Virus genome (UHGV): UHGV-0172325
Direction: 5' to 3' (one strand)
Origin: a virus
DNA: 12,537 bases
In this document: positions 7,336-8,588 of the stretch, piece by piece
Layout of the letters: every line of letters begins with the position of its first letter
Numbering within the stretch: the stretch's first letter is position 1
Program-made: the position numbers and the translations under genes
The notes under the pieces: model-generated
Told to the model about the DNA's origin: nothing
The model's input: only the letters and a program-made list of their open reading frames with translations
Database searches by the model: none

Positions 7336-7986
7336 TTATTGCTTAGGAGCTTGTTGTGATGACGATTGGTTAGTTGGAGCGCTCGTTAATGGTTGCTGTG
7401 TCGGTACCTGTATTATAATTGGAGCCGGGCTGGTTACTGATGGTGACTTGTCATTGCCGGAGATAATCCAACTTGAGGCTAACATCACGCCAGACAGAAT
7501 CACAGTAACTAAAGTCAAGCCAACGGCCATCGCCCACTGAGTCGTTGTAAGTCCCGTTTTCAAACCGCCGATTTCACCTTTAATTTCAGCAATACCTCTC
7601 TCAATAGAAGAAAATTGCTGAGTATAATAGGTTTTAAAGTCAGCTGATTCGCGACGCATTTCCGCAGCAATAGACTCTACCTCTGATTTGTTTTGTGAAA
7701 GCTTTGCGTCAAGTTCTTCTCTGGACATTCCGCTCACGCTTACCTCCAGGGTATCACTCTTCATCGCTACATCTTCCTTACTTGGGCGCAAACCCGTTTC
7801 GTCCATGGCGTATGAAACTCTATTTGATACCTTAGCATCAATACCAATACTTTGGTACTGAGATGGATCCCCATAAGGAGAAACGGTTGTCGCTGCTAGG
7901 GTTGCACTAACTATAATACTTGGAAGAACTGATGATGTTGTTCCTGAGGTAGGTTGAACTGAAGAAACTGGCTTCAGTCTTTCCAT
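7336..7986 (-). CDS. Membrane protein (216 aa): Ser/Thr-rich N-terminus, coiled-coil, one TM helix, Pro/Ser/Thr/Gln-rich C-tail; function unknown
   Basis: Long ORF with hydrophobic segment WAMAVGLTLVTVILSGVMLASSWII preceded by a heptad-like region (ELDAKLSQNKSEVESIAAEMRRE...IERGIAEIKGEIGGLK). Overlaps the upstream gene by 13 nt and is followed by a terminator. Occupies the rexAB/sieB-type position. Confidence 0.55.
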   Translation of the reverse strand: MERLKPVSSVQPTSGTTSSVLPSIIVSATLAATTVSPYGDPSQYQSIGIDAKVSNRVSYAMDETGLRPSKEDVAMKSDTLEVSVSGMSREELDAKLSQNKSEVESIAAEMRRESADFKTYYTQQFSSIERGIAEIKGEIGGLKTGLTTTQWAMAVGLTLVTVILSGVMLASSWIISGNDKSPSVTSPAPIIIQVPTQQPLTSAPTNQSSSQQAPKQ

Positions 7987-8240
7987 AGCCCATTATCCCT
8001 GAGAGCTACCTGTAATGATTTTACTAATGCAACAGCTTGATCCGGGCTCATTGAGACTGACATGTTAGGGGTCAACTCAACTTTTACTTGGAAGCTATTC
8101 TTTCCTTGCTCATCAGACTGCATGTGATGCTCAAATTCATGGCGGTAAAAAGTAATGATTGTTTCAGCACGATCAGGCGTAATAAGAACTGATGTGGCGG
8201 TCATGTGCTGAGGTATGATTTTAATAGTGTTATCTGACAT
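7974..8240 (-). CDS. Hypothetical soluble protein (88 aa), cassette partner
   Basis: Start set at the Met at 8240 with AAGGA 5 nt upstream. The longer 135-aa track version starts without an SD in an AT-rich stretch. Coupled to the downstream membrane protein gene. Confidence 0.45.
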   Translation of the reverse strand: MSDNTIKIIPQHMTATSVLITPDRAETIITFYRHEFEHHMQSDEQGKNSFQVKVELTPNMSVSMSPDQAVALVKSLQVALRDNGLWKD

Positions 8241-8432
8241 AAGTATCCTTTTTGTTTCCTTAGTATTTTTTTGCATTGACATCAGAAATAGCGAATCCAC
8301 AAGAGTATGAGTAAAGCTAATCAGTTTAGTGATACGGTGACTATTAAAGTGGTAAACCACATCAAAGCTCGCAGAGTGCATACCAGGCTGTCACACATGA
8401 CAAAGTAACGAGGATGCCTGATCTCATAGCGC

Positions 8433-8588
8433 TCAAAGAGACATGCCGATAATGGCATTAACCACGCATGACGCCATAAACACGCCGCCAACGATGAAGC
8501 TGGCTTGGTTCTTCCTGGTAGCGCCAAGAGTCAACAGAACCACTGAAAGGGCAAAAAAAGGTATCGCGATTATGCTGAACGTGTTCAT
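8433..8588 (-). CDS. Small hydrophobic peptide (51 aa, two predicted TM segments)
   Basis: Not in the ORF track. ATG at 8588 with GAGGT 4 nt upstream. Translation: MNTFSIIAIPFFALSVVLLTLGATRKNQASFIVGGVFMASCVVNAIIGMSL. Lies 77 nt downstream of the cI stop on the same strand. Confidence 0.35.
   Translation of the reverse strand: MNTFSIIAIPFFALSVVLLTLGATRKNQASFIVGGVFMASCVVNAIIGMSL

What the first reader, a model, noticed from the sequence alone, without database searches (positions are those of the whole stretch)
7336..8588. Uncharacterised three-gene cassette between cI and pL, at the rex/sieB position: candidate exclusion or abortive-infection module
Directly downstream of cI on the same strand are three ORFs: a 51-aa peptide with two hydrophobic segments (8433..8588), an 88-aa soluble protein (7974..8240) and a 216-aa protein (7336..7986). 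The 216-aa protein has a Ser/Thr-rich N-terminus, a heptad-like coiled-coil, one TM helix and a Pro/Ser/Thr/Gln-rich C-tail. The last two genes overlap by 13 nt, and the unit ends at a strong bidirectional terminator (7308-7335) just before pL. I recognise no enzymatic or DNA-binding domain in any of the three. By eye the cassette is more AT-rich than the flanking cI and N genes, which suggests a horizontally acquired moron. In lambdoid phages this slot holds lysogen-expressed defence genes (rexAB, sieB and similar), so a membrane-centred exclusion or abortive-infection function is the working hypothesis.
Basis: partly seen in the sequence, partly recalled or inferred. Interest (0 to 1): 0.8.

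Follow-up and report, generated by a model that had tools for sequence, protein, structure and literature searches.

The report
Prophage membrane cassette in rex slot
Three small genes beside the repressor of an HK97-like prophage form a swappable unit built around a membrane-anchored coiled-coil protein and its partner; it sits where phage lambda keeps its rexAB exclusion genes, so it is a reasonable but untested candidate for a new prophage defence.

Summary
The window is an HK97-like immunity region. The 216-aa and 88-aa ORFs are HK97 Gp48 and Gp49, which are annotated with no known function. The 51-aa ORF is unannotated but is a real gene: it has 36 homologue clusters, a fixed length, and dN/dS of 0.07-0.12.

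Mosaic breakpoints define one mobile unit, 7302-8641, made of orf51, a spacer, gp49, gp48 and the Timm terminator. This unit lies next to at least three unrelated repressors, and about 1% of complete E. coli genomes carry it.

Gp48 belongs to an undescribed family of about 200 clusters at 50% identity. Members have a variable, disordered N-terminus, a highly conserved helix, a coiled coil, one C-terminal TM helix and a Pro/Gln-rich tail. In 16 of about 19 contexts the gene order is repressor, small partner, then family member. In the lambda-immunity phages HK542 and HK244, a distant member pair sits in place of rexAB.

Partner type co-varies with the N-terminus and not with the membrane half, and the conserved helix is the recombination joint.

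No protein matches any known defence, structural or enzyme family. The best reading is a lysogen-expressed, membrane-acting exclusion or abortive-infection module that resembles Rex in layout but not in sequence. Its function is inferred, not shown. The AT-richness claim is only marginally true, and sieB does not belong to this slot.

The parts
8666..9367 (-). cI repressor ORF as listed (S24/LexA type). It is the upstream gene of the presumed pRM operon and is context, not part of the mobile unit. The true start is probably internal to the listed ORF.
   Evidence: The C-terminal half is HK97-like; the N-terminal half differs.
7302..8641 (-). Minimal mobile unit shared by all carriers: orf51 with its RBS, the spacer, gp49, gp48 and the terminator.
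   Evidence: Megablast breakpoints in HK225 and in IMG/VR loci L023, L024, L036, L040 and L043, which carry other repressors.
8433..8588 (-). orf51, an unannotated gene for a 51-aa protein with two hydrophobic segments and an RK loop. GAGG lies 5 nt upstream of the ATG.
   Evidence: 36 homologue clusters of fixed length. dN/dS 0.07-0.12, with similarity confined to the ORF. Chromosomal homologues occur in Atlantibacter, Klebsiella and Raoultella.
8241..8432 (-). 192-nt spacer (GC 0.40) with no listed ORF supported by conservation. It contains the palindrome TGTCA-N4-TGACA at 8389-8402. No consensus promoter and no significant RNA fold were found.
   Evidence: z = +0.5. Similarity to the Klebsiella module begins only inside gp49.
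7974..8240 (-). gp49, an 88-aa soluble partner protein (PHROG 26809, unknown function). AGGA lies 5 nt upstream of the ATG.
   Evidence: The 66%-identical Klebsiella homologue is also 88 aa. There is no hydrophobic segment. The AF2 model is unusable, with pLDDT 47.
7729..7986 (-). gp48 residues 1-86: a variable, Ser/Thr/Val-rich N-terminal region predicted to be disordered. Proposed docking region for gp49.
   Evidence: pLDDT about 45-55.
7555..7728 (-). gp48 residues 87-144: the family-defining conserved helix (SREELDAKLxxNKxEVxxIAAEMRRE), a short coiled coil and a Gly-rich hinge. The first part is the recombination joint between modules.
7462..7554 (-). gp48 residues 145-175: the single C-terminal transmembrane helix.
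   Evidence: helix 145-175; KD19 maximum 2.25 at residue 152.
7336..7461 (-). gp48 residues 176-216 plus the stop codon: a Pro/Ser/Gln-rich tail with the conserved PIIIQVPxQQ motif. A periplasmic location is inferred.
7302..7335 (-). Intrinsic terminator, homologous to lambda Timm: hairpin at 7310-7333 followed by UUUUCUUUG on the minus strand.
   Evidence: -19.1 kcal/mol, z = -4.0. About 91% identical to the lambda Timm region. Annotated as Timm in HK542. The same hairpin ends the Klebsiella module.

Best explanation
The region is a composite moron cassette in the cI-Timm slot of an HK97-like prophage.

**Core.** The core is a two-gene module, gp49-gp48, from a previously undescribed family. 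Family members nearly always lie directly downstream of a prophage repressor on the same strand.

**Proposed mechanism (inferred, not shown).**
- The cassette is co-transcribed with cI from pRM in lysogens, and the transcript ends at Timm.
- Gp48 is a tail-anchored inner-membrane protein with its N-terminus and coiled coil in the cytoplasm and its Pro/Gln tail in the periplasm.
- Gp48 oligomerises through the conserved helix and heptad repeats, forming a bundle of TM helices.
- The small soluble Gp49 docks on Gp48's variable, disordered N-terminal region and acts as its sensor or regulator.
- On infection by another phage, the pair compromises the membrane (abortive infection). This is Rex-like in logic: a soluble component plus a membrane effector.

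**orf51.** orf51 is a separately acquired small two-TM membrane protein. It travels with the module in E. coli but is not part of the family core.
For: **Shown here.**
- The genes are real and conserved.
- The unit is mobile and independent of repressor type.
- The synteny repressor, then an 84-147 aa partner, then a family member holds in 16 contexts. In most of them the partner and member genes overlap by 4-23 nt. The contexts include distant members.
- In the lambda-immunity phages HK542 and HK244, the pair lies between lambda-type cI/pRM and Timm in place of rexAB.
- No strong terminator lies between cI and Timm.
- The architecture is a disordered N-terminus, a confident helix, a TM helix and a tail. 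The single hydrophobic segment is at the C-terminus.
- Partner type co-varies with the N-terminal type in 8 of 9 related-partner pairs, against 4 of 111 other pairs. It does not co-vary with the membrane half.
- Nucleotide breakpoints fall at the conserved helix.

**From the literature.** The repressor-N region is a recognised moron site. bstA in this position is transcribed from the cI promoter (PMC7067206) and is an abortive-infection defence (PMC8585504, abstract).

**Established knowledge.** Lambda cI-rexA-rexB is transcribed from pRM and terminated at Timm. RexA is soluble and RexB is a membrane protein.
Against: - There is no experimental or expression evidence of any kind, and I found no paper on Gp48 or Gp49 function.
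- Neither protein resembles any PADLOC defence model beyond coiled-coil noise.
- There is no Pfam, NCBIfam, PDB or BFVD relative.
- The Gp49 model is unusable, and the Gp49-Gp48 contact is inferred from co-variation only.
- Oligomerisation, pore formation and membrane topology are untested inferences.
- In Xenorhabdus-type prophages the pair lies near arc/ant or tail genes rather than next to the repressor.
- Position in a moron slot is compatible with functions unrelated to phages.
Confidence: 0.35

Rival explanations
1. Entry-blocking superinfection exclusion. Gp48, with or without orf51, sits in the inner membrane. Through its conserved periplasmic tail (PIIIQVPxQQ) or its TM helix, it blocks channel formation or DNA injection by incoming phages, as HK97 gp15 or P22 SieA do. 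The cell survives.
For: - Both Gp48 and orf51 are small inner-membrane-type proteins.
- The tail motif is conserved in much of the family.
- HK97 already uses a captured host small membrane protein, gp15 (a YebO homologue), for this purpose (PMC3594210). orf51 likewise has chromosomal homologues.
Against: - Several family members end right after the TM helix with no tail (P0041, P0048, P0056, P0066), so the tail is not the core.
- The most conserved element is the cytoplasmic helix.
- A co-varying cytoplasmic partner and N-terminus has no obvious role in a passive entry block.
Confidence: 0.15
2. Lysogenic-conversion or regulatory function unrelated to phage exclusion. Examples are envelope or stress physiology, tolerance to colicins or antibiotics, or modulation of the prophage's own induction or lysis. 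Gp48 would act as a membrane scaffold.
For: - Morons have diverse roles (PMC3594210; PMC7067206).
- There is no homology to any defence protein.
- orf51 homologues are chromosomal, and in Klebsiella one lies directly after a dinI-family gene.
Against: - Every characterised occupant of this exact slot that I know of is a phage-exclusion function. These are rexAB and bstA (PMC7067206, PMC8585504), plus HK022 nun and 933W stk from my own knowledge.
- Rapid module shuffling and diversification of the partner and N-terminus is more typical of conflict systems.
Confidence: 0.2
3. Toxin-antitoxin-like addiction pair. Gp48 is a membrane toxin and Gp49 is its cognate neutraliser, encoded upstream and translationally coupled. 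The pair stabilises the prophage, and may also act as a TA-type abortive-infection system.
For: - The upstream small gene overlaps the downstream gene, as in type II TA operons.
- Co-variation of the partner with the N-terminus suggests cognate specificity.
Against: - There is no match to any TA family.
- The variable N-terminus is predicted to be disordered and is not a toxin domain.
- The Xenorhabdus-type member in L044 lacks the N-terminal extension entirely.
Confidence: 0.1
4. Inert cargo: the ORFs are conserved only by hitch-hiking or are not expressed.
For: All E. coli copies are at least 98% identical, so there is no within-species selection signal.
Against: - orf51 is under strong purifying selection.
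- The Gp48 family keeps its architecture across about 200 clusters at 50% identity.
- Synteny and overlaps persist at 28-35% identity.
Confidence: 0.04

Closest known systems
Lambda RexA/RexB abortive-infection system
   Same: - It occupies the same slot, between cI and Timm on the cI strand.
- It has the same layout: a soluble protein gene first, then a membrane protein gene.
- A distant member pair of this family sits in place of rexAB in the lambda-immunity phages HK542 and HK244.
   Different: - There is no sequence similarity; no RexA or RexB Pfam or PADLOC hit was found.
- RexB is a polytopic (four-TM) protein, whereas Gp48 has one C-terminal TM helix after a coiled coil.
- Gp49 (88 aa) is far smaller than RexA (279 aa).
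- The sizes and TM count of RexA and RexB are from my own knowledge.
HK97 gp15 (YebO-like) superinfection exclusion moron
   Same: It is from the same phage lineage. It is a small inner-membrane protein with chromosomal homologues in Enterobacteriaceae that was captured by a phage (PMC3594210). orf51 shows the same pattern.
   Different: - orf51 gave no YebO hit in Pfam.
- It lies at a different locus: gp15 is in the tail operon.
- No exclusion phenotype is known for orf51.
BstA of Salmonella prophage BTP1
   Same: It is encoded directly downstream of the prophage repressor and is transcribed from the repressor promoter (PMC7067206). It is an abortive-infection defence (PMC8585504, abstract).
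   Different: BstA is a single, soluble protein that localises to sites of phage DNA replication. There is no sequence or architectural similarity.
Tail-anchored coiled-coil proteins (Pfam CCDC90-like/DUF1640 type architecture)
   Same: The architecture is the same: a cytoplasmic coiled coil followed by one C-terminal TM helix. 27 of 90 family members give sub-threshold hits, the best at E = 2e-8.
   Different: HK97 Gp48 scores 12.6 bits against a 33.5-bit cut-off. The hits overlap with generic coiled-coil families such as Baculo_PEP_C and NPV_P10, so this is architecture or compositional similarity and not demonstrated homology.
Other occupants of the cI-pL slot (933W-type Ser/Thr kinase cassette, DUF1828 pair, HK022 nun)
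   Same: They are alternative cargo bounded by the same conserved Timm/pL junction, which is present in 583 of 5426 E. coli genomes.
   Different: The proteins are unrelated. The exclusion roles of stk and nun are from my own knowledge and were not tested here.

Membership tests
RexAB | Sequence homology to RexA and RexB | tested here: not met
   No RexA or RexB model appears among the Pfam hits at E <= 1 or the PADLOC hits at E <= 1.
RexAB | Location between cI and Timm on the cI strand, with a soluble-protein gene followed by a membrane-protein gene | tested here: met
   A family member replaces rexAB in HK542.
RexAB | Exclusion of T4 rII and other phages by membrane depolarisation in lysogens | not testable with these tools
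   This needs lysogen challenge experiments.
SieB / SieA / Imm-type superinfection exclusion proteins | Sequence homology to a described exclusion protein family | tested here: not met
   No such family appears in Pfam, NCBIfam, PHROGs (functional categories) or PADLOC.
YebO / HK97 gp15 family (for orf51) | Match to the YebO model | tested here: not met
   The Pfam scan of orf51 at E <= 1 lists only weak TM-region hits: PspC TM at 0.007, DUF2721, DUF3040 and claudin.
PHROG 5820 (Gp48) and PHROG 26809 (Gp49), unknown function | Significant full-length match to the family HMM | tested here: met
   E = 9.6e-69 and 2.7e-62.
Pfam CCDC90-like (PF07798) | Score above the gathering threshold (33.5 bits) | tested here: not met
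   12.6 bits, E = 0.12.
Moron (Juhala et al. 2000 sense) | Present or absent among otherwise collinear relatives | tested here: met
   The same unit lies next to different repressors. An identical cI is followed by a different cassette. About 1% of complete E. coli genomes carry it.
Moron (Juhala et al. 2000 sense) | Own terminator | tested here: met
   Hairpin at 7310-7333, -19.1 kcal/mol, z = -4.0. It is included within the HK225-type breakpoints.
Moron (Juhala et al. 2000 sense) | Own promoter | tested here: inconclusive
   No sigma-70 consensus match on the minus strand in 7337-8665. Expression from pRM is plausible but unmeasured.
Moron (Juhala et al. 2000 sense) | Base composition different from the flanks | tested here: inconclusive
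   GC is 0.442 against 0.454 (cI) and 0.478 (N). The parts differ internally: orf51 GC3 is 0.60, while gp48 and gp49 are 0.36 and 0.39.
Type II toxin-antitoxin | Homology of either protein to a known toxin or antitoxin family | tested here: not met

The most novel reading that the evidence does not exclude
gp49-gp48 is the founding, genetically tractable example of a widespread, previously unrecognised class of prophage defence in Enterobacterales. In this class a conserved tail-anchored coiled-coil membrane effector is fused, at a conserved helix that doubles as a recombination joint, to swappable sensor modules. Each sensor module is a short N-terminal docking region plus a cognate small partner protein. 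The whole unit is expressed with the repressor as a functional analogue of RexAB.
Probability: 0.3. Interest if true: 0.75.

Novelty: new variant of a known kind. Interest (0 to 1): 0.55.

Why it matters
HK97 is a model phage, yet the two annotated genes in its rex position have had no assigned function since the genome was published, and a third gene there has been missed.

This work places them in a family of about 200 clusters at 50% identity with four properties:
- it tracks prophage repressors;
- it replaces rexAB in lambda-immunity phages;
- it has a clear two-module mosaic design;
- its N-terminal region co-varies with the partner protein.

That turns an anonymous pair of ORFs into a specific hypothesis that can be tested cheaply. 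If the module is a defence, it adds a new membrane-effector type and shows how sensor modules are shuffled onto a common effector. If it is not a defence, it is still the commonest unexplained kind of cargo found here beside repressors in enterobacterial lambdoid prophages.

Tried and rejected
- **Family libraries.** Pfam, NCBIfam, PADLOC and PHROGs scans of all three proteins and of 90 family members gave only unknown-function PHROGs and coiled-coil cross-hits. The partner proteins of other members also fell only into unknown-function PHROGs.
- **Solved structures.** PDB sequence-profile searches found nothing meaningful.
- **Gp49 structure.** The AlphaFold2 model, built from only three sequences, had pLDDT 47 and was not used for fold search.
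- **Gp48 fold search.** The search against BFVD gave no hit with E below 5. The AFDB library was unavailable.
- **Rfam.** The scan of 6500-9700 gave only a chance lncRNA hit.
- **Spacer 8241-8432.** It has no consensus promoter, no significant fold (z = +0.5) and no similarity to the Klebsiella intergenic region.
- **The 51-aa ORF in locus L014.** This ORF, also directly downstream of a cI gene, is not homologous to orf51.
- **Distant partner homology.** Homology between Gp49 and the 84-99 aa partners of Yersinia and Kosakonia members is only suggestive (hhalign probability 57%, E = 1e-4), so I do not claim it.
- **Rank correlation.** The correlation of partner and N-terminal similarity over all pairs was weak (rho 0.16) because most pairs are at background. 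The categorical test is the informative one, but its thresholds were chosen after seeing the data and the pairs are not independent.
- **Literature.** Searches found no functional study of Gp48, Gp49 or the HK542 pair. Juhala et al. 2000 and Cumby et al. 2012 are not held. I made no look-up of Degnan et al. 2007.
- **A second TM helix.** I considered that the Gp48 N-terminal hydrophobic stretch (residues 17-37) might be a second TM helix and rejected it. Its KD maximum is 1.42, below the 1.6 threshold. Close relatives with a 64%-identical membrane half have a highly basic N-terminus with no hydrophobic stretch.
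Full report
**What the window is.** The window is the early and immunity region of an HK97-like lambdoid prophage. 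From left to right it carries recombination genes, N, pL, the cassette, cI, cro, cII, O and a DnaB-type P. Bases 7250-8665 are 99.6% identical to phage HK97 and 99.8% identical to HK225. In the HK97 record the 216-aa ORF is Gp48 and the 88-aa ORF is Gp49, both without assigned function. Nothing is annotated over the 51-aa ORF. The window is not HK97 itself: 9076-9661, which covers the N-terminal half of cI, OR and cro, has no match to HK97, while both flanks do.

**Checking the observation.**
- The Gp48 architecture is confirmed. An AlphaFold2 model built on a 90-sequence alignment has a low-confidence N-terminus (1-88), a helix at 89-137 with pLDDT above 90, a Gly-rich break, a second helix at 145-175 and a low-confidence tail.
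- The only Kyte-Doolittle TM window in Gp48 is 150-177. The tail is rich in Ser, Pro and Gln. Gp49 has no hydrophobic segment, and the 51-aa product has two.
- The hairpin at 7310-7333 folds at -19.1 kcal/mol (z = -4.0) and is followed on the minus strand by UUUUCUUUG. The stretch 7250-7336 is about 91% identical to the end of the lambda rexB/Timm region. The same element is annotated as Timm in HK542.
- There are three corrections. The cassette is barely more AT-rich than its flanks: GC 0.442 against 0.454 for cI and 0.478 for N, and orf51 is GC-richer with GC3 of 0.60. The consensus scan flagged the terminator on the plus strand only. sieB is not a resident of this slot; it lies to the left of pL.

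**The 51-aa ORF is a real, overlooked gene.**
- It has 36 homologue clusters down to 67% identity, almost all exactly 51 aa, with 9 invariant positions.
- Against chromosomal homologues from Atlantibacter and Klebsiella michiganensis, pS is 0.65-0.67, pN is 0.11-0.16 and dN/dS is 0.07-0.12. Nucleotide similarity begins and ends exactly at the ORF.
- The homologues are in ordinary chromosomal contexts. In Klebsiella the gene follows a dinI-family gene after a 3-nt gap. In Raoultella it follows a DUF6500 gene with a 4-nt overlap.
- In E. coli the gene was found only inside this cassette, in 52-53 of 5426 complete genomes, and is almost never annotated.
- HK225 annotates two antisense ORFs over this stretch instead. 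The conservation pattern says the minus-strand ORF is the real gene.
- Its high GC3 relative to gp49 and gp48 suggests separate acquisition.

**The cassette is one mobile unit.**
- Megablast breakpoints in HK225 and in several IMG/VR prophages fall at window 7302 and at 8641-8690. Everything from the orf51 RBS to the terminator moves together.
- The unit lies next to the HK97-type S24 cI, the HK225 cI and a 139-aa non-S24 HTH repressor.
- Conversely, the identical cI protein WP_001274760.1 is followed by this cassette in strain MS 119-7 and by a different two-gene cassette in strain CAVP773.
- The conserved Timm/pL junction occurs in 583 of 5426 E. coli genomes. There it bounds rexAB, a 185-aa protein plus a DUF1828 protein, or a DUF3024/Ser-Thr-kinase cassette.

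**The gp49-gp48 family.**
- A word-indexed search found only 11 Gp48 relatives. A profile search of 1.84 billion representatives found 203 at E <= 1e-3 and 105 at E <= 1e-10.
- All members share one plan: a variable N-terminus of about 0-100 residues, the near-invariant helix SREELDAKLxxNKAEVxAxAxEMRxEMAxWR, a variable number of Gly-containing heptads, one C-terminal TM helix and usually a Pro/Gln tail with a PIIIQVPxQQ-like motif. Some members end right after the TM helix.
- Pfam, NCBIfam and PADLOC give only coiled-coil cross-hits. PHROGs places Gp48 and Gp49 in unknown-function families 5820 and 26809. PDB and BFVD give nothing.

**Conserved synteny with the repressor.** In 16 contexts the order is repressor, sometimes one or more small ORFs, an 84-147 aa partner, then the family member. 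All are on one strand, and the partner and member genes often overlap by 4-23 nt. The contexts are:
- the three E. coli repressor types above;
- Klebsiella prophages and phage ST15-VIM1phi2.1;
- Yersinia intermedia and Y. enterocolitica;
- Kosakonia;
- several metagenomic prophages, including the distant member P0083;
- a prophage on a Providencia IncC plasmid;
- phages HK542 and HK244.

The exceptions are Xenorhabdus-type prophages, where the pair lies near arc/ant or tail genes, and one short contig.

HK542 and HK244 carry lambda's own cI, pRM and Timm. Between these elements they have the pair HK542c105/c104, of 144 and 206 aa with a 4-nt overlap. HK542c104 has the full family architecture. 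A member of this family therefore occupies the position that rexAB holds in lambda.

**Modular design.**
- The HK97 and Klebsiella pairs have 66%-identical partners and alignable N-termini, but diverged membrane halves.
- The HK97 and Yersinia pairs have 64%-identical membrane halves, but unrelated N-termini and partners.
- Over 16 modules (120 pairs), related partners go with related N-termini in 8 of 9 pairs, against 4 of 111 otherwise (Fisher p = 5e-9). Partner relatedness is not associated with the membrane half (1 of 9 against 12 of 111). The caveats are that the pairs are not independent and the thresholds were set after inspecting the data.
- Sliding-window nucleotide identity places the breakpoints at the two ends of the conserved helix. 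L003 against L048 is 80-95% identical through the partner, the N-terminus and the helix, then about 40%. HK97 against L003 is about 40% until the helix, then 63-80%.
- The protein is therefore a mosaic of a [partner + docking region] module and a [coiled coil + TM] module, with the conserved helix as the joint.
- Partners fall into at least four types, all of unknown function: PHROGs 26809, 4231, 5881/5893 and 4293. Whether the 84-99 aa types are distantly related is only suggested (hhalign probability 57%).

**Most likely mechanism.**
- *Shown:* the genes are real; the unit is mobile; it tracks repressors; there is one C-terminal TM helix after a confident helix; and the partner co-varies with the N-terminus.
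- *Inferred:* co-transcription with cI from pRM up to Timm. This rests on the absence of a strong intervening terminator, analogy with lambda cI-rexAB, and the precedent of bstA (PMC7067206).
- *Inferred:* an N-in, C-out tail-anchored topology. Close relatives have a strongly basic N-terminus with no hydrophobic segment.
- *Inferred:* Gp49 docks on the disordered N-terminus, and Gp48 oligomerises through the heptads into a TM bundle.
- *Inferred:* the pair acts on the membrane to exclude or abort infection by other phages.
- I give the Rex-like abortive-infection reading 0.35, an entry-blocking exclusion 0.15, a non-defence conversion or regulatory role 0.20, a TA-like addiction pair 0.10 and inert cargo 0.04.

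**Comparison with known systems.** The module works like RexAB in position, gene order and soluble-plus-membrane logic. It is not a member of that family, because homology was tested and not met. orf51 parallels HK97 gp15 as a captured chromosomal small membrane protein (PMC3594210) but is not YebO-like. The architecture resembles tail-anchored coiled-coil proteins of the CCDC90/DUF1640 type only below threshold. The literature searches found no functional work on these genes.

**Verdict.**
- The genes themselves are known hypotheticals. What is new here is the missed third gene, the family, its linkage to repressors and its two-module mosaic design.
- Novelty: a new variant of a known kind, namely repressor-linked prophage exclusion cargo.
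- Interest: 0.55.

Noticed in passing
window 9076-9661: The N-terminal half of cI, OR and cro have no megablast match to HK97 or to the MS 119-7 prophage, although both flanks match at 94-98%. The window therefore comes from an HK97-like prophage with a different immunity specificity. IMG/VR loci L026 and L032 match it throughout.
   Followed up: partly
L057 (HK542, EF120458) 1472-2523; also HK244 EF120457: Wild phages with lambda immunity carry a distant member pair of the gp49/gp48 family (144 aa and 206 aa, 4-nt overlap) between lambda-type cI and Timm, in place of rexAB.
   Followed up: yes
window 8443-8652 (+) and L002 (HK225) 4007-4352: HK225 annotates two ORFs antisense to orf51 and the spacer, and the window has a 69-aa plus-strand ORF there. 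The conservation pattern (dN/dS, ORF-limited similarity) supports the minus-strand orf51, so the antisense calls are probably spurious.
   Followed up: partly
L020/L021 4001-4183; L055 4001-4156; L017-L019 4001-4156: Chromosomal orf51 homologues are tightly linked to different upstream genes. In Klebsiella michiganensis the upstream gene is a dinI-family gene, after a 3-nt gap. In Raoultella it is a DUF6500 gene, with a 4-nt overlap. This hints at a small membrane protein used in several operons, possibly SOS-linked.
   Followed up: no
L014 3438-3593 and L013 about 1288-1440; L003 3746-4691: Other prophages also place small hydrophobic ORFs between cI and the partner gene. One is a non-homologous 51-aa single-TM peptide in L013 and L014. 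The others are two paralogous 132-aa and 135-aa N-terminal-TM proteins (PHROG 34525) in Yersinia intermedia.
   Followed up: partly
window 8389-8402: A perfect palindrome, TGTCA-N4-TGACA, lies in the 192-nt spacer between orf51 and gp49. The spacer has no consensus promoter and no significant RNA fold, and its origin is unknown.
   Followed up: no
L007 about 5903-5926 versus window 7309-7332: The Klebsiella module has coding DNA only about 65% identical to HK97, yet it ends in an almost identical terminator hairpin (24 nt, 96%). This fits Timm acting as a conserved boundary and recombination sequence of lambdoid immunity regions.
   Followed up: partly
L044 3605-4375: In one Xenorhabdus-type prophage the family member lacks any N-terminal extension. 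Its upstream 106-aa gene resembles the C-terminus of the adjacent 446-aa antirepressor-like protein.
   Followed up: no
L052 (E. coli CAVP773) 3095-3890: A two-gene cassette of 145 aa and 123 aa (overlapping, hypothetical) follows the identical cI protein that precedes the gp49/gp48 cassette elsewhere. It is another uncharacterised occupant of the slot.
   Followed up: no
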